A stretch of DNA of 64,000 nucleotides from Dictyostelium discoideum (Eukaryota), in NCBI GenBank assembly GCA_000004695.1, contig CM000155.2, positions 2,144,001-2,208,000 of the forward strand, given 5' to 3'. The position numbers were made by a program, and so were the translations under genes. Below, piece by piece: positions 22,263 through 58,131 of this stretch. Under the pieces are notes generated by a model, which saw only the letters and a list, made by a program, of their open reading frames with translations, did no database searches and was not told the origin of the DNA. Within the stretch, counting starts at the first letter, position 1; the number at the start of each line of letters is the position of its first letter.

Positions 22263-25048
22263 TTATAAAATAATAATAAAAAATAATTTAATATTTACGT
22301 GTGGTAATTCACCATTACAAGATAAATAAATCTTTTCAAAGAAATCTTGTAAATTCTCACCATCAAATAGACGATTATATTTTGGACCAAACAATGAAGA
22401 ACCACCAATATGATAACCTAAACTTCTATAAGATTCAAATTGAGCCTCTGTAAAGAATTGATCAGTTGTTGATTCATGAGGGAATGATGGATGTTGAGAT
22501 TGATATTCTTTAATAATTTCATCTTCATCACCAGTTAATGATGATTTAATATAAAGTATATAACCTACTTCTCCTGATGGTGGATCATTTTCATAAGAAT
22601 TTTGATGATTATTATTTTGATTATTATTATTATTATAATTATTATTATTATTATTACTATTACTACTAGTTTTATTTGATTTTTCATTTTCATTATGATG
22701 ATAATTATGAGTATCATGTGAAAATCCACTTTTCTTTTTTTGATAAATAATTTTACCAACAGTCCAATGTTTTTTACTATAACCAGTTGTAGGTGATCTT
22801 CTAATATCATCTAAATTAATTTGAATATTTATACCAAAATCGATTCTAACCAATCTCATTAACTGAGCCATTGAAGGGAATGTCATATCAGGATCAGCTT
22901 CCGAATCACTGATAATAATGAATTTGCAACGACGTTTAATTAATTCATAAGCACCTAAATTTTCGATATGGCCACCATCACTTAGATTGATACACCAATC
23001 TTTACTTGTCATTGGAGTCCAACCAAATTCTTTGACTAAATGATAACATGCAAACCCACCATAAAATACTCTACCCAATACTGGATGACTAAGAAAGATA
23101 CCAAGTGGATTTGGTAACCAATATCCCAATCTAATATTTAGGATACCCAATGACATGACCAAAGTTGGAATTGTAGCAGTACCCATTTTAGTTCCAACGG
23201 CAGCACCAGATATTGAGACGGCAGTTGCTAAATCTAATCTTCTATCTAAACGTTCCATTTGTTCGGTTGATCTATAACCACTCGATTCACTACCACAATA
23301 ATGTTGAGAGAAAATAAAGAAATCTGAACCACGAGAATTTGGTAACTCTAATCCATCACTATTACTAACTGAATTTAAAGTTGTATTAACCAAAAGATAG
23401 GGTGCAACGGATCTTCTATTTAATCTTGAAATTTTCTCACCACCATAAGGTCTAAATCTACCATTCTTGATGCTAAACATATATGCTTTACTTAGACGGT
23501 CACGATAATATTTATGCATTGATGTTTCATTTATATCCAAACTAAAGAAACTTAATAATGATATGAAAAAACACATACCATTTCCAATACCAAACAATGG
23601 ACAACTTGAATCTAACCAAACACTTAATTCCAAATAAGTTAGAATCAATAGAATTGGACCAATCACACTAACTATAATATGAAATACTAAACGTTTCCAA
23701 GGTGAAAGTTTTGGATTTGTCAATAGAGTGAATGCTAAGGAATCTGCTAATATCAATGCAAACAATGATATCAATGGATAAACTCTAAATGATGTTGAAC
23801 TTGATCCACCAAAATAATAGGTATAAACCACTTCTATTAAAGGTAATGATTCAACGAATGCGCCAGCAATCAAAACTATAAATAACCAACCAAATGATCG
23901 ATCATACCAAACTTTGCTACCTTCCTTTTTGAATAACATTGGGAAATTTAAATATAAATGTAACATTATTGATATACCCAAATCGATATTTGAAATTTTT
24001 GAGAAATACTTTGAAAGTTCACCATAGTAGAAAAAGACGAAACCAACCAATACCGGTATGGTAACTTTTGGTCTTGAAATAATTGGGAAAATGATAATAT
24101 GAATTAATAGATTCCAACCTATTCTTAATGAAACATGATAACCTTCACCAAATTGAACTGGAACGTATCTTTCAAACAATAGTAATGCCCAAACAAATGG
24201 AAATATTGAAATTAGATTTAAAACAATACCACGTAGAATCAATACTGGAAATAATAAGAATTCGAAAATACCATTGGCTAAATAGTTTGCGCTACTTCTT
24301 AAATGAGTTAATGGTGTACCCTCTTTTAATCCTCTACCATAATGAAATGGGAAATTATGCCACTCGGTCGTATAGGTACCCTCACTTAATAATGATATTA
24401 AACATGATCCTATGAATCCACCACCCGATACAGTAGATAGATAATCAATCTTTTTAAATAATTTATGTTTTGATAATGCTTGAAGTAATCCTAAATTAAA
24501 AGTTGCTGATCTAATTCCACCACCTGATAATGCTAATCCAACTAATCCAAAATTAACTGATGGGGTTACCTTTTGATTATATCCACTATTATGTAATGTT
24601 GAATAGGATGGTGATGATGATGATGCTGTGGTGGTTGTATTATTCGTTCCTGTTGTATTTGTAGTTCCTATTGTACTTGTAGATCCTATAGTATTATCAC
24701 TCTTTTTACTTATACCTGATAATGTTGATGCTGAATCTAATACTTCATCATCTGAATAATCCTCAATAAATGGTAATTCATTTAATGTTGTATTATTTGC
24801 TGTTGTTGATGAATTTGCATTGGATGCACCATTCCAAGTACTACGCAATGATTGAGGACTTGGTAATAATTCATCTTTATTCACTTTTTCATCAACTCTA
24901 TCTACTTTTTTATTTTTATTACTATTTTCATTATTATCATCATTATCATAAGTTTCTGGTATATTATTTACATTACCAATACCAACACTTGTATTAATTT
25001 TTAATTGGGTAGAATTATAATTTAATTTATTAAAATCACCACCTCCAC

Positions 25049-25088
<40 letters not shown>

Positions 25089-25766
25089 TTGAGGATTAAT
25101 ATTATTATTTGGGTTTGTATTATTTAATTGTTTAATTTCATTTGTTGAAATTGTTGAAGTCGTTGTTGCTGTTGTTGTTGTTGTTGTTGTATCATTAGCA
25201 TCAGTAGTAATAATATTATTTGGTGAAAGGAATAATGGTGATGGTTCATTTATGATTGAACTTGAATTTAATGGCTGTGGTGTATGAAATACAACTTGAG
25301 ATTTCTTTGATTTTTTATTTGCAAGAGGTGGTGTTGAAGAGGTAGAATTTGCAAGATTAGATTTTCTATTGAATGAACTCTTTGAGGAATTTAATAGAGC
25401 ATATGCTGGAAACAATTTAGAGATTTGAAATGGATCTTTCTCTTTTAATACATTCACTCTTCTTTTTGCCAACTCTTTTAACTCTTCTGGGAAAATATCA
25501 TTAAATCTTTTTGGTTTAGTATTAATCATTTGCCTAATCATTAATAGTGGATCACCAATACTATCTTTACGTCTCTTTAAATTTGTAGTGTTTTTATTCC
25601 TCCATTCTCCTGATGATATATATTCATAAACTCTAAATACCGCTATTATTAAAAATACACCTATCATCATTGCCATCCATGGTTGAACTTGTAATGATAT
25701 AAACTTTCCAATAGTTATAAATAATTGACCATTTTTACCATTCACTTTTATAAATTCATTAAACAT
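22263..25766 (-). CDS. Patatin-like phospholipase domain protein with a large multi-pass transmembrane insertion between the GxSxG-type nucleophile region and the DGG catalytic-Asp motif.
   Basis: Single 1167-aa ORF. The Gly-rich oxyanion-loop motif is GLALSGGGIRSATFNLGLLQAL. The nucleophile elbow is DYLSTVSGGGFIGS. The DGG motif CINLSDGGHIENLGAYELIKRR lies about 480 aa further C-terminal. In between are about 10 predicted hydrophobic helices (e.g. FLLFPVLILRGIVLNLISIFPFVWALLLF, FGWLFIVLIAGAFVESLPLI, LILTYLELSVWL). The N-terminus has a TM segment and a poly-N/Thr-rich linker. Confidence 0.75.
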
Positions 25767-48635: not shown

Positions 48636-50186
48636 TTTAAATTATTAATTTTTATTCAAAAATAGATTCAAAAGTTGAAGCAGAACATACAAAAAATTCA
48701 TTAATTGAATTATATAAATTGAATTCAGTTACAACACTTAATTCATTTTTAACATTTTTAGAATCAGAAGAAAGTTCAATGGAAGATCAACCAGCATCAT
48801 CAACATTATTATCATTTTTAAAGGAAAGTATCATTCCATTGGTTCGTACAGAATATTCAAAAAGTTCAATAGAGACTCAAACATTCTTTAGAGTTCGTAT
48901 TTTGAAATTAATTGCAAAATGTACATCAACCACTGAATTGGATTTACTATTCCAATTATTAGAATGTTTCACACAATATAAAGTTCAAGAGACAATCACT
49001 GATTTAGAAACAAATGTCCTACCAGTAATTGAATCTCAATCATTGGATACCATTAGAAAGAAACTTATTAATTTCACTAAAATCTTACTTTTTAAATCAA
49101 AGGTATGGCAAATAAATAAGTAAAAAACATAATTCAAACCACCATTATTATTACTAACATTTTAAAATTATATATATATTTAGAAACCACATACAGAAAT
49201 TAATAGTAATAAATTATTTGATTTATATTTAAATAAAATTTTCCCAAAGGTTAATGAATTGGATGAAACTAATAAAACTGAACTAGTTTCAGTATTTTCT
49301 CAAGTCACACCTCATATGACACAAGAAATTTCAATGCAATTTTTAGAACCGGTTTATAATCTTTTCAAAGTATGTGTTATTAATCAATTAATTATAGTTA
49401 TTATTATTTATTATTTATTAAAATTTATTATTTTTTTTTTTTTTTTAGGCAACAGTACCATCAAAAACTACAACACCAGTTGCAGATGTTGATTTACAAT
49501 TTACAATAGTTGAAGCATTATTATTTGCATTATCATCAATTGGATCAAAATCAACAAGTTCACTTTGTAAATTATGTGGTTTCAAATTGGTTACAGGTCA
49601 ACCAAGTGATATGAATGCTGACCCAGTTAAATATGAGGATTTCTTGGGTAGACATAGATTTTTAGATGAAAAATGTAGAGAAACTTTGGGTAAAGCCAAA
49701 AAGGCAATTCCAAATCTTGGAAATCCAAAAGATAAGGCACAATTGAAATTGGCACAAAAAACACTCTTATCCACTCAAAACATTTTAACAATTATGCAAA
49801 ATTTATTGAAATCACCACCAGTTACAAACATCAATAATTTAGTAATCTCTTCAACAATTTTTAAAGGTAAACAAAATTTAATTCATAATGTTTCACCTGT
49901 ATTTAAACCACAACAACATCAACATCAACATCAACAACAACAAGTTCAACAAAAACAATATCAAAAATATCAAGCACAACAACAACAACAACAAAATATA
50001 CCAATTCAAAGAAATCAACAACAACAACAACAACAAAAATCAAATCGTTATCAACCATATGTTACACCTGGTAGAAGACATCAAGATTTAGATAAACCAA
50101 AACAAGATGGTGTTGAAGTTCATTATTATTCTGAAAAACATAATAAACCATCAAGTTTTAAAGGAAGGGGTCCAAAAAGTTATTAA
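47825..50186 (+). CDS. api5: Apoptosis inhibitor 5 (API5/AAC-11) ortholog. Five exons, 47825..48016, 48278..48545, 48666..49102, 49184..49369 and 49449..50186.
   Basis: Donors are GAT|GTATGT, ACA G|GTTTGT (phase 1), AAG|GTATGG and AAA|GTATGT. Acceptors are aaaaag, aatag, atttag and ttttag. All were frame-checked against track ORFs 48719.., 49259.. and 49587... Exon 2 ...LSPQFISKYFKRFPTLQEKAIDCLIDLFDSSDEDVIMRVNALKAIPTICRDNPDHIAKLVDILSQLLNT matches the API5 N-terminal HEAT/ARM region (LAAQFIPKFFKHFPELADSAINAQLDLCEDEDVSIRRQAIKELP...VADILTQLLQT). The C-terminus ...RGPKSY matches API5 ...RSRGRLY. Confidence 0.8.
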
Positions 50187-50667: not shown

Positions 50668-52220
50668 ATGACAACTCAAATCTATCAGGTTCCAGTTGTC
50701 AGTAATGGTCTTAGAGAAACTGAATCTATTCTTCAAATTGTAGATTCACTTGAAAAACTTGAAAAGGTTTTTAATGATATGTATTCAACAATTTCTGCAA
50801 GAGTATCACATGAAAAATCAAGAATTGATAATGTTGCAAATAGATTAAATAATGCACAAGTATGTTTTTTTTTTTTTTTATATTAAAATGGTAATAATAA
50901 ATAGCTTACAACTAGTTGTATTAATATATATATATTCTATTTTTTATATGTTTTTTTATTATTTTATTTTTTTTTTTTAAAAAAAAAAAAAAGCATAAAG
51001 TTAATCAAATTGTTGGTAGTAAACAAGCAATAACAGTATTTAGTAGTGCAAAATATCCAGCAGATAAGAAATGGGGAGATTATGTACCAATTTATAGTGG
51101 AAAACATAAATTACCATTTAAACCATCACATTATCATGGATTGAATAGTGAAGATAGTCCAATTAAAAAGAGACCAGAGGATTCATATTTGGATGTAAAT
51201 GATTTAGTTTTCATTGAAAAGAGTATTGATACCACATCGAAAGAAGTGGAGGTTAAGGAAGGTCTTGGTAGAATTCCAGCACAGATTCCAAGTGTTTCAA
51301 ATCTTTTATTATTTAATACTCAAGAGAATCCATACAAAAAGTATTCAAATACATTGGACAATTTATCAGGTGGTGATGGTGGTGAAGATGACTACACAAT
51401 ATTTGGTGACCAATTGTCAAAGAAGAAGAGATTGGGTGACGCTCCAGTCACCGTTAAAGATGGTGATAGTAGAATCGATGCTGAAAACGTTAAAATCGGT
51501 TACGAACCTGGTACTTTTGAAATACCAGTTTACAATTTCCCTTCAATTTTACCACTTCCAAATGTAGCTGAAAATATTACATGGGCTGCTGAATCTCAAA
51601 GTATTGCTCCATCTCAAAAAGCGACTTTAAATTTATTACCAACTTATGATAATTCAAACTCAGGTAGTGCACCTGTAAATCAATCTTCAGGTGGTGATAA
51701 TAATGTAAATAATAATAATAATAATAACAATAGTAATAATAGTACAGGTATAATGCAACCACCACAACCTACAAATGCACCACCACCTCCTCCACCACCA
51801 CCACAATCTGCTAATGCCCCACCACCACCTCCACCACCACCTGTTTCTGCTCCACCACCATTTAATCCACCAAGTGTTAATAGTAACAATGATGACGATG
51901 ATGATGACGATGATGATAATGGTGGCGGCGGTGGACCAGGTGGTGCTATAGGTGATTTATTGGCTGATATTCGTCGTGGTCATAAAAATAGATTAAAAAA
52001 AGCTGATGTTGGTGGAGATAATGGTGATGGTGAAGATAATAAACCACCACCAGTTTCTGATGGAGGTGGCGGTTTAATGGGTGATCTTTTCAAAAAATTA
52101 GCACTTCGTAGACAATCCATTGCAACTACAAAATCAACTAAAAAACAATCAAAATCAAAGAAAGAAGATACTGATGACCAAGATGGTGAATCTGATACCG
52201 ATTCTTCTGAATGGGAATAA
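50668..52220 (+). CDS. WASH1 (WASP and SCAR homolog) actin nucleation-promoting factor. Two exons, 50668..50859 and 50994..52220.
   Basis: Exon 1 MTTQIYQVPVVSNGLRETESILQIVDSLEKLEKVFNDMYSTISARVSHEKSRIDNVANRLNNAQ has donor CAA|GTATGT. Acceptor aaaaag (50992..50993) gives HKVNQIVGSKQAITVFSSAKYPADKK.... Matches to human WASH1 include AIKVFSSAKYP, SSLLLFNTTENLYKKY (here SNLLLFNTQENPYKKY), poly-Pro, a WH2-like GGAIGDLLADIRRG, and the C-terminal GGGGLMGDLFKKLALRRQSI plus acidic DTDSSEWE. Confidence 0.85.
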
Positions 52221-52527: not shown

Positions 52528-55039
52528 ATGTCCTTAACAATGCAACAAAGTGATAAAGAAAAAGCCTCAGAAAAACCTTCTGAAACTATTATTGAGGAAA
52601 AAGATTTAATAAGCCAACAAACTATACAAAATGAAAATATGTCAAATTCGATAACAACTACGACTACAACCACAAAACCAACCCAACCTTCACCATTATC
52701 AGCTGAGCAAATAATACGAAATAATTCCAAATCAACAGAATTAAAAAATGCATCATCTCAAGAAACCCCATCAAATCCACCACCACCAACACCATCAAAT
52801 CCCCAATCATCAAATCCCCAATCATCAAATCTTCAACCATCAATAACAGTTACTAAAGAAAGTGGTATGGAACCAGACTCGCCAACCATTTCATCAACTA
52901 AAAAGGTAAAGTATTTCCCTTTAACACCTTATCTTGATAAATTGGATCAAATTAAAAAAGTACAAGAAATCAGTGCCGATGATATGATGAATGATCCAAA
53001 TTTATTAAAGATGTTTGATGATGATAAAATGTTTTTAAGTACACCTGAAAAGAATTCATCTTCATCATCATCATCAGTATCTTCACATTCTGATAGAATT
53101 GATAGTAGTGGTGAAGTAGATTTTTTTGATTTATACGGTTCATTATCAGATAGTGATGATTCTAGAGTTTCATCTCCATCAGTGGATCTTTCAGATTCAT
53201 CATCAATAGCATCTCCATCATCAACACCAGTAATCAATGCAACCCCACAATTAGTTTCAATCTCCGAATCTAATGAAAATGATTTATCAATATCAATATC
53301 AACTTCACCACCAAACCAATCTTCAATGAAAATCGACGATAATAAAAAACCAATAAATGAAGGAGAGAAAATTATACAAATTGAAAATGAAATAAAAGAA
53401 CAAACTTATTTGGAAACTATTAAAAATGTTGAAAACACAGTATCAAAAACATCAACCATAGCAACAACACCAACACCAACATCAACACCAACACCAACAC
53501 CAAAATCAACACCAACACCAAAATCAACACCAACGACAACAACAACTACCACATCTGTAAATAATATAACACCAACCATGGTTTCGAATGAAAAACAAAC
53601 CACTACAACAACCACTAAAACTAAAACATCACCACCACCACCAACACCACCACCAACATCACCAACATCAACAACATCACCAACGTCATCAACACCACCA
53701 ACACCACCAACACCACCAACACCACCAACACTACCAACTAAAATAACAAAAAAATCTTCCACAAATAAAACATCAGAAAAAAAAGAGGAAACAAATAATC
53801 AAAAAGAACAACCATCATCATCATCATCATCGTCATCATCATTAAAAAAGAATATAGTTCAAAAACAGATTAAAAAAATTAAAGTAAAAATTGAAGATAT
53901 GGCAAACAAAAAATATCCAAATAGTAAAAGAGTAACCATCAATGGTGGGTCAGCACCACCAGATGATGAATATTATCAAAATTTATTGGAATACTTAAAG
54001 GAGGAACAAGAATTTAAACCAAGTCCATTACCAAAAGAATCATTAAAGGATGGACATGTATTTATAGTTTATGGTGATTTAACAAAGTTGGTATGTGATA
54101 TTAGAATGGTACCATGTAGTCATAATGTAGTATTTAGAGATACAATCAATGGATGGTTGAAACCTGATTGGATGTTATTCCCCTTTGAAATTAGAAATAA
54201 ATTTAAGGATATTCGTATTGATTTCCGTGATGGTAGGGATAGAGTTTATAAATTAAAAGATTGGCCAACTGAATATCCAAACATTTCACAACCATGGCTT
54301 TGCAATGTGGTTCCATTCAAACGTGGTATCGACTCACATTGTTGTGCCTGGTATGTAAAAGGTGCAATTGACTTTTTGGATAAGGTCGGACACGATCTTG
54401 AAGTCAATAAGCCGCCCATCAAAAATGGAAGAGCAAAACCATTGGTAAGTCTACCCATTTTGGGTACTGGTGGGGGTGGCGGTTCCAGAATTGCCGGTCA
54501 AATTCTATCATTGCTAATTCATGAACTATTTGTTGCAACTCGTAAATGGAAGTATGATGTTGTTTTAGTAACAAATGAAATTTCAATGTACACAGCTGCA
54601 ACCAATATAAGAAAAGAATTAATAGAATCAAACCCAACCTTCTCTTCAATCTATCGTAATCTATTGGGTGATGAAATTATGAAAAAAGCACACACCTTGG
54701 GAAAACTATTAAGAGAGGATAAATTGGCAATATTCCTTGGTGCTGGTAGTTCTCGATCAGCAGGATTACCAACTTGGACAGGTTTACTAGATATGTTGGG
54801 AGCAAAACTTGGTATGACAGAAACTGAACTCAGACAAATGGAACAACTTCATCATTTAGATCGTGCAACAGTATTAGAATCTCGATGGAAAAAACAATTA
54901 AAAAAATATTCTGAAAATATTAAAACTTCTTCTAATTCTCCTTCTTCTTCTTCCTATTCTTCTTCTTCTTCTTCTTCAAATATTTTTACACCATCACTAA
55001 ATAAAATGTTTGAAAATGATAATTTAGATGGTGCAACAA

Positions 55040-55072
<33 letters not shown>

Positions 55073-56031
55073 ATGGTTTAAAAACTACAAAAGAAGTTAA
55101 TGATGAAATTTTAAAAATTAAAAATGAAGAGAGACAGAAACAAATAAGAGAAGAAAAAGAATTATTAGAAAAAAAAAACCGTGAAAAATTAGAAAAGGAA
55201 CAAAACTTTGAATATATTCATAAGAAAATCTATAATCAAATTAATGTGCCAATGCAAACAGAGATTGCAAATCTAATGAAGGTATCACATGCAGGTTTAC
55301 CTCATTTCCTATTGGCATCGACACCTGTTCAAGAGATTGTAACCACAAATTATGATCAATGTTTTGAGATTGCTAGTAGATCTATTGGGAAGGAAATTTG
55401 TGTTTTACCATACCATTCGTTGAATGGTCGTAATAAAAGATGGATTTTAAAGCTACACGGTTGTGTTTCAAATCCTAAAGATATCATTATAACTCGTGAA
55501 GATTACATTAGATATGGGGATAAGAACGAAGCATTGTCAGGCATGGTCCAAGCATTGTTAATTACAAAACATCTATTATTTGTTGGTTTCAGTTTAACTG
55601 ATGACAATTTCTATCAAATTATGTCTGCTGTTAAACGTGCGACATCCACTGGTGAAGACGGCAGTGTCAGATTAAAGAATACTTTTGGCACAGCCCTATT
55701 TCTTCAAAGAAATGATTTAATGAATGAAATTTGGGGTAAGGAATTAAATATTTTATATTTTGATGAAAATAAATCCGATATTGCATGGTGTGCTAGAAAA
55801 CAAGAAATCTTCTTGGAATATCTAACTGGAGTTTGTAGTAATAATAATACAAGTCATTTAATGGAGAAAAGGTTCGATTGTCTATTAAAAGAAGGTGAAA
55901 AAATATTTAGAGATCGTTTAATTGAATTTGTTTCTTCATTACCTGAAGAAGCAATTAAATCTGATGCTTTCAAAAAGTTTCATGTATTTTTAACTGAAAT
56001 GGGTTATGATAGTAGAAATTTTTATTATTAA
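52528..56031 (+). CDS. Large single-exon protein. It has a low-complexity Ser/Thr/Pro-rich N-terminal half, a divergent macro-like domain, a prokaryotic-defence-type SIR2-like (SIR2_2 / ThsA-DSR-FAM118-like) domain and a C-terminal helical extension.
   Basis: Continuous 1167-aa ATG ORF. The macro-like signatures are VFIVYGDLTKLVCDIRMVPCSHN (about 54068..54126) and LPILGTGGGGGSRIAGQILSLLIHEL (about 54451..54530). The SIR2-like signatures are AIFLGAGSSRSAGLPTWTGLLD (about 54727..54790, GAGxS...GxPxW), TTNYDQCFEIA (about 55345..55375) and ILKLHGCVSNP (about 55444..55475). The P-x-W and TTNYD motifs, rather than GIPDFR and TQNID, point to the SIR2_2 (DSR/ThsA/FAM118) clade and not to a canonical sirtuin. 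Confidence 0.7.
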
Positions 56032-56298: not shown

Positions 56299-57143
56299 AT
56301 GGATAAATTTGTTATTATTAAATGTATAAATCCAGGATTTATACCACCAAAAGAGAAAAAAGAGGAGCCAAAAAAAGAGGAGCCAAAAAAAGAGGAATCT
56401 AAAAAAGAGGAATCTAAAAAAGAGGAATCCAAAAAAGAGGAATCTAAAAAAGAAGAACCAAAAAAGGTTGAGATAAAATCAGAAACAAAAAAGAAAAGAG
56501 CAGCAAAATCAAAAACAACCAATAATACTACAACTTCATCTACTACTACCACAACCACCACAACCAATAATAATGAAAGTACAAAAACAGGATTAGCAGC
56601 AATAATAACACCAGTAACAGAAATTAAAAAACAACCACAACAGACCTTAGTAAGTCATTTCTTTTCAGCTAATACAGGTGATAAACCATCATATAAATTT
56701 TTATTTGAAAAAGAAGCAGCTGATAGAGCTGAAGAAGAAAGAAAAAGAGCAGAAAGAATCGCAAAAGAGGAGGCGATTTTGGCAGAAAAAAGAAAACAAA
56801 TCCAAAAAGCAAAATTAGAAGCAAAAAAGAAAAGAGAAATAGAAAGAAGAAAGAGAGAAGAAGAGGAATGGGAAGAGTATTTAGCAATGCAAGAAAAAAC
56901 AACCAAAGGTGTTGAAATTATACCACACCTTTATCTAGGTTCCTTTTTGGCTGCTAAAAACTCTGAATGGTTATTAGAAGCAAATGTTACCAAAATTGTA
57001 AATGTAACTTCCGAAGTACCATCTTACTTTTTAAGTAAAAAAGAAAAAGAAAATGATAAGATTATATCTGAAAAGGATGAAATTGATTCTTTTATTGTTG
57101 ATGATGATGAAGATGAAAATGAAGATGAAGATGATGAAGATAT

Positions 57144-57186
<43 letters not shown>

Positions 57187-58131
57187 AATGAAGATGAAAA
57201 TGAGGATGAAGATGGTAATCAGGATGAAAATGTTGACATTGGTGATGAAAAAGATAAAGAAATGAAAGATTTACCAATAACACCTTCCCCTAATGAAAAG
57301 AAAGAAGAAAATATAGAAATGAAAGATAATGATGATAAAGATCAAGAAATGAAAGATTCACCAGCGGCAGCAGCAGCAACATCTTCCACTAATGAAAAGA
57401 AAGAAGAAGAAAATGTAGAAATGAAGGATGAATTAACAATAAATAATATACCAATTAAAATTGATCAAGTTAATGAAGATGTTGATAGTGAGAAAATTAA
57501 AGAACTTTCAATTAAATATTTAAGAATTTCAATTTCTGATAGTTTTAGATCAAAAATTGAAAATTATTTCCAAGAAGCAATTGATTTCATTAATCAAGGT
57601 AATGTGGATGGTAGTGAAAAATCAAATGTTTTAATTCATTGTAAACAAGGTAGAAGTAGATCACCATCAATCGTAATTGCTTATTTAATGTCAAATGAGA
57701 AATGGACTTTAGAAAAGGCATTCAATCATGTCTCTAGTGTAAGTCCAAAGAATTTAACAGTTAATGATGGATTCAAAAAGAAATTAATGGATTTAGAAAT
57801 GGAATTATTTGGTTCAAACTCTATTAACTTTTTTGATAGATCAAATAGAACTTCAAGAGCAAATATTTCCTCTGCTGCAATCACTTCAACTTTAAATATC
57901 ACTCAAAAGAGAATTAAAAATCAGAATAAAAAAAATGATGATATTAACAACAACAACAACGACGACAATAATAATGAAGATAATAAAAATAAAAATGAAG
58001 AAAATGTCGTTGATACAGCAGATGTAGTATTACCAACAAATTTAAAAGTTGAAGATGATGCCTCCACTATCGATCAATTAAAAGTTGTAAAAAGAAGAAA
58101 AAATATCTCCATAGTAGAAGATGATGAGTAA
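56299..58131 (+). CDS. Dual-specificity protein phosphatase (DUSP/MKP-like). It has an N-terminal (KKEEP/SKKEE)n repeat and a large acidic poly-Asp/Glu insertion inside the catalytic domain.
   Basis: 610-aa ATG ORF. DUSP domain start is VEIIPHLYLGSFLAAKN...IVNVTSE. The catalytic loop is NVLIHCKQGRSRSPSIVIAYLM (HCxxGxxRS). Between these lies a ~170-aa insertion DDDEDENEDEDDEDIDDDDDDDDDDDDDE...EMKD repeats. Confidence 0.85.

What the first reader, a model, noticed from the sequence alone, without database searches (positions are those of the whole stretch)
52528..56031. Eukaryotic macro-like + defence-type SIR2 (SIR2_2/ThsA-DSR-FAM118-like) fusion protein
The C-terminal half of this 1167-aa ORF carries the three hallmark motifs of the SIR2-like NADase clade used by prokaryotic immune systems (Thoeris ThsA, DSR, SIR2-HerA, pAgo-SIR2) and by animal FAM118. 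These are GAGSSRSAGLPTW (Gly-rich NAD loop with P-x-W), TTNYDQ and KLHGC. Canonical sirtuins use GIPDFR and TQNID instead. Immediately N-terminal is a domain with macro-fold signatures: VYGDLTKLVCDIRMVPCSHN resembles GDIT-[DAIVNAAN], and LPILGTGGGGGSRIAGQIL resembles the macro FPAISTGVYGYP phosphate-binding loop. In Thoeris the SIR2 effector is gated by a nucleotide-signal-binding domain (SLOG, or Macro in type II systems). A macro sensor fused to a SIR2 NADase therefore suggests a ligand-gated NAD+-depleting effector, possibly responding to an ADP-ribose-derived signal, in an amoeba. The long disordered Ser/Thr/Pro N-terminus (about 480 aa) is an additional eukaryote-specific feature. I do not recall this architecture being characterised in amoebae, but I cannot check a database from here.
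Basis: partly seen in the sequence, partly recalled or inferred. Interest (0 to 1): 0.85.

Follow-up and report, generated by a model that had tools for sequence, protein, structure and literature searches.

The report
Amoeba macrodomain–SIR2 NADase fusion protein
This Dictyostelium gene encodes a bacterial-type enzyme that probably destroys the cofactor NAD+, fused to an ADP-ribose-binding "macro" sensor domain; the fusion is real, but it is already listed in a 2024 survey of eukaryotic immune-type sirtuins and has never been tested experimentally.

Summary

- **SIR2 half:** the C-terminal half is a defence-type SIR2_2 domain (Pfam 108 bits, no canonical Sir2 hit). It has intact catalytic residues and is closest to the NADases KomC, ThsA and DSR2.
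- **Bacterial relatives:** the Macro-SIR2 core is a widespread ~520-aa bacterial protein, and this macro subtype occurs only fused to this SIR2. I found no recurrent neighbour that could be a TIR signal generator. In Actinomycetota the gene sits in ADP-ribosylglycohydrolase/phosphatase/ARPP/NrtR clusters.
- **Mechanism:** the most likely one, still inferred, is an NAD+-depleting effector gated by ADP-ribose or a derivative.
- **Novelty:** low. The first 399 residues match an entry in Table S4 of Bonhomme et al. 2024, assigned to "Clade C", which that paper describes as SIRim fused to Macro. No experiments exist.

The parts
52528..56031 (+). Complete single-exon ORF of 1167 aa plus stop codon: the Macro-SIR2 (SIRim clade C) protein of Dictyostelium discoideum.
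   Evidence: ORF listing. The first 399 aa are identical to EukProt Dictyostelium_discoideum_P001125 in Table S4 of Bonhomme et al.. Both flanks are AT-rich intergenic DNA (13% GC upstream).
52528..54021 (+). N-terminal low-complexity tail (aa 1-498), found in dictyostelids and absent from the bacterial homologues.
   Evidence: 50% S+T+P+N. No Pfam family. In bacterial homologues the macro domain starts at about residue 3.
52909..52971 (+). Short motif KYFPLTPYLDKLDQIKKVQEI (aa 128-148) inside the tail, conserved in other dictyostelid orthologues.
   Evidence: It aligns with P. violaceum P0003 (KYFPLTQHLGKLDQIKKVQEI) and H. album P0006 (KYLPLTPHLSILEQIKVLSEL) in alignment A1. Coordinates.
54040..54642 (+). 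Macrodomain (aa 505-705), binder type.
54052..54117 (+). Strand beta1 and the adenine-site block GHVFIVYGDLTKLVCDIRMVPC (aa 509-530). It contains H510, F512, C523 and the adenine-contacting D524.
   Evidence: H510 is 96%, F512 98% and D524 97% conserved over 163 family members. The block aligns to LYVVNGDLTEVRCDAVVHPT of macroH2A1.1.
54451..54507 (+). Gly-rich diphosphate-binding loop LPILGTGGGGGSRIAGQIL (aa 642-660), equivalent to macro 'loop 2'.
   Evidence: G646 97%, G650 95%, G651 100% and G657 94% conserved. It aligns to FPLLGTGVGG of the Thermus macro protein 2dx6. In the model it lies between a strand and a helix.
54643..56028 (+). Linker helix plus SIR2_2/SIRim NADase domain with a C-terminal helical region (aa 706-1167).
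   Evidence: Pfam PF13289, 108 bits. PADLOC best hit ThsA, E 7.5e-33. Foldseek: KomC TM-score on target 0.72-0.75, also BcThsA, SeThsA and DSR2. Full-core model pLDDT 85.3, pTM 0.82.
54733..54777 (+). NAD-binding Gly loop FLGAGSSRSAGLPTW (aa 736-750).
   Evidence: F736, G738 and G740 are 100% and W750 99% conserved over 144 family members. It aligns to the ThsA N-terminal GAG loop.
54913..55242 (+). Dictyostelid-specific insertion in the SIR2 domain (aa 796-905): a Ser/Thr-rich disordered stretch followed by a Lys/Glu-rich helix.
   Evidence: It is absent from bacterial homologues. pLDDT is below 50 for aa 807-851, followed by a long predicted helix. Composition.
55339..55359 (+). VTTNYDQ catalytic motif (aa 938-944). 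N941 corresponds to ThsA N112.
   Evidence: T939 and N941 are 100% and D943 99% conserved. The residue-by-residue alignment to ThsA 6lhx places N941 on N112.
55450..55464 (+). KLHGC motif (aa 975-979) with the catalytic His977.
   Evidence: H977 is 99% and G978 100% conserved. It aligns to K(L/M)HGD of ThsA.

Best explanation
The gene encodes a prokaryote-derived, two-domain sensor-effector enzyme. An N-terminal non-catalytic macrodomain binds ADP-ribose or an ADP-ribose-containing ligand. It controls, probably through a change in oligomeric state, a C-terminal SIR2_2 (SIRim) domain that hydrolyses NAD+. When active, the enzyme would deplete cellular NAD+, as the bacterial defence sirtuins ThsA, DSR2 and KomC do. 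Dictyostelids added a ~500-aa disordered N-terminal tail and a ~110-aa insert in the SIR2 domain. SHOWN here by computation: the identity of both domains, intact catalytic and ligand-site residues, the absence of hydrolase motifs in the macro domain, the obligate Macro-SIR2 coupling, the bacterial distribution, and the lack of any recurrent neighbour gene outside the actinobacterial ARG cluster (so no conserved TIR partner). INFERRED: that the macro domain binds an ADPr-type ligand, that binding switches the NADase on, and that the biological role is cell-autonomous defence or stress response. The actinobacterial context (ADP-ribosylglycohydrolase + phosphatase + ARPP + ADPr-sensing NrtR) points to free ADPr, or a processed ADPr derivative released from ADP-ribosylated macromolecules, as the likelier ligand class rather than a TIR-made cyclic signal.
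For: - SIR2_2 scores 108 bits and canonical Sir2 gives no hit. ThsA is the best defence-model hit. ThsA, KomC and DSR2 are the best solved relatives by sequence and by fold.
- N941 is conserved in 100% and H977 in 99% of 144 family members.
- D524 and the Gly loop are conserved in 94-100% of members, while NAAN, GGGxDx3H and Cx4HxC motifs occur in 0 of 163 (motif definitions from PMC11490716).
- The two-domain core is shared with ~500-550-aa bacterial proteins at 35-44% identity across both domains.
- The macro profile finds 1605 representatives. Of the 141 new ones listed, 120 also carry the SIR2 domain and the other 21 are short fragments. The long ones are tandem Macro-SIR2 repeats.
- The confident interdomain model (pTM 0.82) fits a single functional unit.
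- NrtR/ARPP-1/ARG+DSPc neighbours occur in 13 of 80 loci, and P0033 is an ARG-Inositol_P-SIR2_2 fusion.
- Precedents: a non-catalytic ThsA macro domain binds ADPr/IAD and oligomerises (PMC11204291), and ThsA, Avs5 and FAM118B NADases are activated by filament formation (PMC12700824).
- Bonhomme et al. place the protein in SIRim clade C, which branches with ThsA-like bacterial sirims.
Against: - There are no biochemical data for any member of this family. Ligand binding, NADase activity and gating are all inferred.
- This macro subtype is never seen with another effector, unlike typical modular sensors (SLOG, SAVED, the type II Thoeris Macro). That would also fit a co-catalytic or substrate-targeting role.
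- About 65 of the 80 bacterial loci show no conserved partner, so the origin of any ligand is unknown.
- The NADase product, ADPr, could itself be the macro ligand. Feedback regulation, positive or negative, is therefore as possible as sensing an external signal.
- I could not inspect model coordinates, so the position of the macro pocket relative to the SIR2 active site is unknown.
- FAM118B/SIRanc shows that eukaryotic SIRim proteins can be weak NADases used for signalling rather than NAD+ depletion.
Confidence: 0.55

Rival explanations
1. Writer-eraser unit, like the SirTM/Zn-Macro pair or the fungal fusion Mfs1. The SIR2 domain ADP-ribosylates a protein target and the fused macrodomain removes the modification.
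Against: SirTMs are defined by replacement of the catalytic His with Gln, whereas here His977 is kept in 99% of members. The sirtuin is SIR2_2, not the canonical or class-M type. The macro domain lacks the NAAN motif, the GGGxDx3H catalytic loop and the Cx4HxC zinc loop in 163 of 163 sequences.
Confidence: 0.1
2. Reader-targeted enzyme. The macrodomain recognises mono- or poly-ADP-ribosylated proteins (for example at PARP-marked DNA damage or stress sites) and recruits the SIR2 domain there for local NAD+ turnover or signalling. Under this model it is a housekeeping or stress function rather than immunity.
For: The closest fold and profile neighbours are reader-type macrodomains that bind ADPr on proteins: PARP9 macro 2, macroH2A1.1 and PARP14. 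The long disordered tail with a conserved short linear motif suggests regulated protein-protein interactions. From general knowledge, Dictyostelium has extensive PARP signalling.
Against: The core is inherited essentially unchanged from bacteria that lack PARP-based chromatin signalling. The SIR2 clade is the defence-associated one: 12-fold enriched near antiphage systems according to Bonhomme et al.. Nothing in the sequence points to nuclear targeting, though I did not test for this.
Confidence: 0.15
3. Product-feedback NAD+ homeostasis enzyme. The macro domain senses the enzyme's own product, ADPr, and either throttles or cooperatively boosts NADase activity, with no external signal.
For: SIR2 NADases release ADPr, and macrodomains of this type bind ADPr. 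Most bacterial loci have no partner gene that could make a signal. In Actinomycetota the gene is co-located with NrtR, an ADPr-sensing regulator of NAD metabolism.
Against: A constitutive NADase would be costly. The relatives whose mechanism is known are held inactive until triggered. This reading overlaps with the main explanation, since it differs only in where the ligand comes from.
Confidence: 0.12

Closest known systems
Eukaryotic SIRim 'Clade C' (Bonhomme et al. 2024, bioRxiv 10.1101/2024.09.18.613514)
   Same: The ORF's first 399 aa are identical to a Clade C entry in Table S4 of that paper, and its Capsaspora homologue is also listed. The paper states that clade C is typically SIRim + Macro, occurs in 83 species, and branches with ThsA-like bacterial sirims.
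   Different: Nothing differs in kind. The paper gives no biochemistry, no bacterial gene-context analysis and no analysis of the macro pocket for this clade. Its comparison to 'type II ThsA' concerns only the presence of a Macro domain.
Type I Thoeris ThsA (SIR2-SLOG NADase)
   Same: It has the same SIR2_2 catalytic core and motifs and is the best PADLOC hit. It follows the same sensor-plus-NADase logic in a single polypeptide.
   Different: Here the sensor is an N-terminal Macro domain, not a C-terminal SLOG. PADLOC ThsA profiles match only positions ~15-217 of 478. No recurrent neighbour gene, and so no conserved ThsB/TIR partner, appears in 86 bacterial loci.
Type II Thoeris ThsA (TM-Macro effector)
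SirTM / Zn-Macro pairs and the fungal Macro-SirTM fusion Mfs1
   Same: A macrodomain is genetically or physically fused to a sirtuin. 8rsl and 8rsn are fold neighbours of the macro domain.
   Different: It is a different sirtuin class (canonical-type class M with His replaced by Gln, versus SIR2_2 with His kept). The Zn-loop, NAAN and Dx3H motifs are absent here.
ARG-centric conflict systems (Iyer, Burroughs, Anand, de Souza, Aravind 2022, PMC9503650, section 3.8)
   Same: In 13 of 80 bacterial loci (12 of them Actinomycetota) the Macro-SIR2 gene lies beside NrtR, ARPP-1 and ARG+DSPc, which is the core of those predicted anti-ADP-ribosylation systems. That paper lists Macro genes and effectors as variable add-ons.
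   Different: That paper selected systems lacking coupled sirtuins and does not describe a SIR2 effector in them. Most family members, including the Dictyostelium gene, are not in such clusters.
FAM118B/SIRanc (SIRim Clade A) and KomC (Kongming SIR2)
   Same: They share the SIR2_2 fold and catalytic residues. KomC is the best structural match to the SIR2 half (TM-score on target 0.72-0.75). FAM118B is a eukaryotic SIRim involved in immunity.
   Different: FAM118B matches only at E 0.02 and has no Macro domain. KomC is a stand-alone SIR2 activated through a partner protein and dITP.

Membership tests
SIR2_2 / SIRim (Pfam PF13289) | Profile score above the curated cut-off. | tested here: met
   108.3 bits against a 24.5-bit cut-off, E 4.4e-31.
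SIR2_2 / SIRim (Pfam PF13289) | Catalytic Asn and His plus the GAG NAD loop are present. | tested here: met
   N941 and H977 align to ThsA N112 and the catalytic His. They are 100% and 99% conserved in the family.
SIR2_2 / SIRim (Pfam PF13289) | The Zn-binding Cys tetrad of canonical sirtuins is absent. | tested here: met
   There is no CxxC motif anywhere in the protein. The criterion comes from Bonhomme et al..
Canonical sirtuin (Pfam PF02146) | Profile match. | tested here: not met
   No hit at E<=1.
Macrodomain superfamily | Macro fold (three-layer alpha/beta/alpha with a mixed sheet). | tested here: met
Macrodomain superfamily | Sequence-profile match to Pfam Macro (PF01661). | tested here: not met
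   No Pfam hit at E<=1. However, the family profile hits the macroH2A1.1 macrodomain 7ny6 at E 6.8e-6.
Macrodomain superfamily | Adenine-contacting Asp and Gly-rich diphosphate loop. | tested here: met
   D524 is 97% conserved; G646, G650, G651 and G657 are 94-100% conserved.
MacroD-type ADP-ribosylhydrolase | NAAN motif and GGGxDx3H catalytic loop. | tested here: not met
   0 of 163 family members have either motif. Definitions from PMC11490716.
Zn-Macro (SirTM partner) | Cx4HxC zinc loop, and a partner sirtuin with catalytic His replaced by Gln. | tested here: not met
   Zn loop in 0 of 163; His977 kept in 99%.
Type I Thoeris ThsA | C-terminal SLOG sensor domain. | tested here: not met
   PADLOC ThsA profiles match only the SIR2 part, positions 15-217 of 478. 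No SLOG family appears in the Pfam results.
Type I/II Thoeris | Adjacent ThsB (TIR) gene in prokaryotic homologues. | tested here: not met
   There is no TIR gene in 6 Pfam-annotated loci. In 80 further loci the only recurrent neighbour clusters are the actinobacterial ARG set, a few other annotated clusters (kinase, sensor kinase, helicase) present in 4-5 loci each, and Polyangium-specific synteny; none is a TIR. A rare TIR neighbour in a single locus is not excluded, because I had no TIR profile to run locally.
Type II Thoeris ThsA | N-terminal transmembrane effector fused to the Macro domain. | tested here: not met
   The maximum 19-aa hydropathy is 1.49, inside the SIR2 core strand, so there is no TM segment.
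SIRim Clade C (Bonhomme et al.) | Listed or placed in the clade, with the SIRim+Macro architecture. | tested here: met
   Table S4 entry Dictyostelium_discoideum_P001125 is assigned to Clade C and is identical to the ORF over the 399 aa shown. The architecture is confirmed here.
FAM118 / SIRanc (Clade A) | Close similarity to FAM118B. | tested here: not met
   E 0.02 and 16 bits to FAM118B chains. A different D. discoideum protein (P009224) is the Clade A member.
ARG-centric conflict system | Neighbouring ARG + phosphatase, ARPP, and an NrtR or WYL regulator. | tested here: inconclusive
   Met in 13 of 80 bacterial loci plus L004, and absent from the rest. It is not meaningful for the eukaryotic locus: the downstream DSPc gene is not a conserved neighbour in other dictyostelids.
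NAD+ glycohydrolase activity gated by a ligand | Measured NADase activity that depends on binding of an ADPr-type ligand. | not testable with these tools
   This needs biochemistry.

The most novel reading that the evidence does not exclude
The family could be a TIR-independent 'ADP-ribosylation alarm'. The macrodomain would sense ADPr, or a dephosphorylated or processed ADPr derivative, that appears when pathogen ADP-ribosyltransferases modify host macromolecules. In the actinobacterial clusters this would be liberated by the ARG + phosphatase genes. The SIR2 domain would then collapse the NAD+ pool, removing the substrate of those transferases and arresting the infected cell. In Dictyostelium this would be a cell-autonomous defence of bacterial origin against intracellular bacteria or giant viruses that use ADP-ribosylating effectors, and it would be genetically tractable.
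Probability: 0.15. Interest if true: 0.7.

Novelty: already known. Interest (0 to 1): 0.3.

Why it matters
The gene is a clean example of a bacterial immune-type NADase module retained in a genetically tractable eukaryote, with a sensor domain different from those of characterised Thoeris effectors. No member of the Macro-SIR2 family has been studied biochemically, in bacteria or in eukaryotes. The ligand, the trigger and the physiological role are therefore all open, and Dictyostelium (knock-outs, infection models) would be a good system in which to settle them. What this analysis adds to the published catalogue:
- the macro domain is a binder type, not a hydrolase type;
- it is an obligate partner of this SIR2 clade;
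- the bacterial relatives have no conserved TIR partner;
- a subset of them sit in ADP-ribosylglycohydrolase/NrtR clusters.

Together these steer ligand hypotheses towards linear ADPr derivatives and away from TIR-made cyclic signals.

Tried and rejected
1. **Pfam/NCBIfam detection of the macro domain:** no hit, so fold and profile methods were needed.
2. **Exact-sequence look-up of the ORF in the protein collection:** not found. The identity came instead from the Table S4 prefix.
3. **A Thoeris-like operon with a TIR partner:** rejected. There is no TIR in the annotated loci and no recurrent neighbour apart from the actinobacterial ARG set.
4. **The downstream dual-specificity phosphatase (56299..58131) as a counterpart of the bacterial ARG+DSPc partner:** rejected. 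It is not a neighbour in P. violaceum or H. album.
5. **A second ORF of exactly 1167 aa at 22263..25766 (-) as a gene duplicate or inverted repeat:** rejected. The proteins are unrelated and the window has no inverted repeat of 300 bp or more. It is a patatin-like protein with only generic-motif similarity to the patatin gene next to the Polyangium homologues.
6. **Known defence-system membership of the bacterial homologues:** PADLOC matches only the SIR2 core.
7. **Viral structure library:** only weak, macro-only hits and no viral Macro-SIR2.
8. **AFDB fold library:** unavailable.
9. **Alternative fusions of this macro subtype:** none. The long proteins are tandem Macro-SIR2 repeats, one with a sigma-70 region 4.
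10. **First bootstrap run:** it produced NaN distances for outgroup pairs. I repeated it with a corrected distance cap, and only the rerun is used.
Full report
**1. The observation**

The window is very AT-rich (about 22% GC) and its proteins are rich in poly-N, poly-Q and poly-T, as in Dictyostelium. The ORF at 52528..56031 (+) is present exactly as described: ATG start, 1167 aa, uninterrupted. Both flanks are AT-rich intergenic DNA.

**2. The SIR2 half**

- Pfam assigns aa 936-1043 to SIR2_2 (PF13289) with 108 bits against a 24.5-bit cut-off. Canonical Sir2 (PF02146) gives no hit at E<=1.
- Among defence-system profiles, the best match is type I Thoeris ThsA (E 7.5e-33), followed by PDC-S25, LmuA, Dsr2 and Dsr1.
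- Among solved structures, the best sequence matches are SeThsA 7uxt, BcThsA 6lhx/8bto, EcThsA 8wc0, KomC and DSR2. FAM118B appears only at E 0.02.
- The residue-level alignments place N941 on ThsA N112 and H977 on the catalytic His.
- A full-core AlphaFold2 model (aa 499-1167) is confident: pLDDT 85.3, pTM 0.82. Only aa 807-851 are disordered.
- Foldseek matches the C-terminal half of that model to KomC (TM-score on the target 0.72-0.75), ThsA and DSR2. No solved structure covers both domains (TM-score on the query <=0.33).
- There is no CxxC zinc motif anywhere in the protein.

So the SIR2 call, including the subtype, is correct.

**3. The macro half**

- Pfam, NCBIfam and PADLOC see nothing in aa ~500-730.
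- The region is nevertheless conserved in about 500-550-aa bacterial and metagenomic proteins, where it starts at residue 3 or so.
- A 33-sequence alignment of the domain (A2) gave an AlphaFold2 model with pLDDT 90.4 and pTM 0.88.
- Independently, the family profile hits the macroH2A1.1 macrodomain 7ny6 at E 6.8e-6 through the GDLTxxxCDAxxxPT block. It also aligns the PLxGTGxGG loop to the Thermus macro protein 2dx6.

Only its expectation of a Pfam Macro hit was wrong.

**4. What kind of macro domain, and what kind of sirtuin**

I used the published definitions of catalytic MacroD-type domains (NAAN motif, GGGxDx3H catalytic loop), of Zn-Macros (Cx4HxC loop), and of SirTM sirtuins (catalytic His replaced by Gln) (PMC11490716). 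I tested 163 macro segments and 144 SIR2 segments from the family.

- None of the 163 macro segments has NAAN, GGGxDx3H or Cx4HxC.
- The adenine-contacting Asp (D524, 97%) and the diphosphate-loop glycines (G646, G650, G651, G657; 94-100%) are conserved. So are H510, F512, W543, R635, D677 and R695.
- The SIR2 domain keeps N941 (100%), H977 (99%), G738/G740 (100%) and D1025 (100%).

This is the profile of a ligand-binding, non-hydrolytic macro domain attached to a catalytically competent SIR2_2 enzyme. It is not the profile of a SirTM/Zn-Macro writer-eraser pair.

**5. Distribution and coupling**

- A profile search with the macro domain alone over 1.84 billion representative proteins found 1605 members at E<=1e-3.
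- Of the 141 new representatives listed, 120 also carry the SIR2 domain. The remaining 21 are 154-281-aa fragments with no room for another domain.
- The unusually long members are tandem repeats of the whole Macro-SIR2 unit, one of them with a sigma-70 region 4.

This macro subtype is therefore an obligate partner of this SIR2 clade. It is not a sensor that is shuffled among different effectors.

**6. Bacterial gene context**

- Six annotated loci showed no TIR or other shared partner.
- I then fetched 80 full-length genomic loci from Myxococcota, Planctomycetota, Actinomycetota, Vulcanimicrobiota, Rokubacteria and others. I clustered all neighbouring ORFs within 7 kb. Fifty loci had at least 3 kb on both sides.
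- The only widely recurrent neighbours were in 13 loci, 12 of them Actinomycetota. They are an NrtR-type Nudix regulator, ARPP-1 (PF20208), and an ADP-ribosylglycohydrolase fused to a DSPc phosphatase. The Arthrobacter locus L004 shows the same arrangement.
- P0033 is a literal ARG-Inositol_P-SIR2_2 fusion.
- This cluster corresponds to the 'ARG-centric' systems that Iyer et al. 2022 predicted to counter viral ADP-ribosylation, with Macro genes and effectors as variable add-ons (PMC9503650).
- Elsewhere the gene appears to stand alone. PADLOC does not recognise the bacterial protein beyond its SIR2 core.

So the family is not a Thoeris variant in the operon sense. Where context exists, it points to ADPr metabolism.

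**7. Eukaryotic features**

- Dictyostelid orthologues (D. discoideum isolate P0001, D. dimigraforme, P. violaceum, H. album) share the long low-complexity N-terminal tail, including a conserved KYFPLTPxLxxLxQIK motif. D. discoideum and P. violaceum also share the insertion in the SIR2 domain.
- Capsaspora and related sequences instead carry a B-box zinc finger inserted inside the macro domain.
- A crude NJ bootstrap on 304 SIR2 columns supports the dictyostelid clade (100/100) and the B-box clade (92-93/100). It does not support a joint eukaryotic clade (2-6/100). This is weak evidence, because it is NJ on one domain with long branches.
- The flanking genes in the window are WASH and API5 upstream and a DSPc phosphatase downstream. 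They are not conserved neighbours in other dictyostelids.

**8. What is already known**

Bonhomme et al. (bioRxiv 2024) split SIR2 proteins into sirtuins and immune-type 'sirims' and defined five eukaryotic sirim clades. [quoted passage not shown] Their Table S4 lists Dictyostelium_discoideum_P001125 as Clade C. The 399 residues shown are identical to the start of this ORF. The Capsaspora homologue is listed as well. D. discoideum also has a separate Clade A (FAM118B-like) protein. I found no paper reporting experiments on any Macro-SIR2 protein.

**9. Mechanism**

The best-supported model is an ADPr-ligand-gated NAD+ hydrolase.

- Shown computationally: the domain identities, the intact catalytic and ligand-site residues, the missing hydrolase motifs, the obligate fusion, and the confident interdomain model.
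- Inferred: ligand binding by the macro domain, activation through oligomerisation, and NAD+ depletion as the output. The oligomerisation step rests on analogy with the ThsA macro domain, which binds ADPr/IAD without hydrolysing it and then oligomerises, and with ThsA, Avs5 and FAM118B, which are activated as filaments.
- The missing TIR partner and the ARG/NrtR context favour linear ADPr or a processed derivative as the ligand.
- Because ADPr is also the NADase product, feedback control cannot be separated from external sensing on the present evidence.
- The rivals are a writer-eraser pair, a reader-targeted enzyme and a homeostatic feedback enzyme. They are scored in their own section.

**10. 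Verdict**

The added value here is the structural proof of the macro fold, its binder-type character, the obligate Macro-SIR2 coupling, the absence of a TIR partner, and the actinobacterial ARG/NrtR association. Interest is modest (0.3). It is an untested but well-defined target in a tractable organism, not a surprise.

Noticed in passing
P0016 (Capsaspora, about aa 480-530), P0017, P0024, P0008; alignment A1 columns ~725-765: In Capsaspora and three related sequences, a B-box-type zinc finger (PF00643 was precomputed for P0017) is inserted inside the macrodomain, right after the PWLVNVGG strand. The rest of the Macro-SIR2 core is intact. These sequences form their own clade (92-93/100 NJ bootstrap).
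   Followed up: partly
P0062 (1693 aa), P0063 (1112 aa), P0188, P0191, P0066, P0201: Some family members are tandem duplications of the whole Macro-SIR2 unit in one polypeptide (2-3 macro matches, 2 SIR2_2 matches). P0201 also has a sigma-70 region 4. This hints that the functional unit is at least a dimer.
   Followed up: partly
L004 5509-9575; L055-L058, L061, L064, L069, L071, L072, L077, L085, L087: There is a conserved actinobacterial cluster of NrtR (NUDIX+WHD), ARPP-1, ADP_ribosyl_GH+DSPc and Macro-SIR2. It matches the 'ARG-centric' systems of Iyer et al. 2022, which were described without a SIR2 effector.
   Followed up: yes
window 52909-52971 (aa 128-148): A short motif, KYFPLTPYLDKLDQIKKVQEI, within the otherwise low-complexity N-terminal tail is conserved in P. 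violaceum and H. album orthologues. It may be a docking or regulatory motif.
   Followed up: no
window 22263-25766 (-): A second ORF of exactly 1167 aa turns out to be an unrelated patatin-like phospholipase (PF01734). The equal length is a coincidence and the window has no inverted repeat.
   Followed up: yes
window 56299-58131 (+): The next gene downstream is a dual-specificity phosphatase (DSPc, HCKQGRSRS active site) with long acidic low-complexity regions. It superficially echoes the bacterial ARG+DSPc partner, but it is not a conserved neighbour in other dictyostelids.
   Followed up: yes
window 49587-50186 and 51141-52220 (+): The upstream ORFs match only C-terminal parts of API5 (profile positions 358-518) and of the WASH WAHD domain plus a WH2 motif (profile positions 124-282). 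They are probably the last exons of multi-exon genes.
   Followed up: no
NJ tree of the SIR2 domain: Dictyostelid and Capsaspora/B-box sequences do not group together (2-6/100 bootstrap), although both are 'Clade C' in Bonhomme et al. This could reflect separate acquisitions from bacteria, or it could be a distance-method artefact.
   Followed up: partly
L018, L019, L021, L080 (Polyangium spp.), about 5.5-9.0 kb and 11.6-13.9 kb: In the Polyangium loci, several additional ORFs upstream of the Macro-SIR2 gene fall in the same similarity cluster, which may mean tandem paralogues or fragments. A patatin-like gene lies immediately downstream.
   Followed up: no
P0001 compared with window 52528-56031: A protein annotated as D. 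discoideum (ACTFIW_007087, 1178 aa) is only 89% identical overall but 96% identical in the core. The low-complexity tail seems to evolve quickly between isolates.
   Followed up: no
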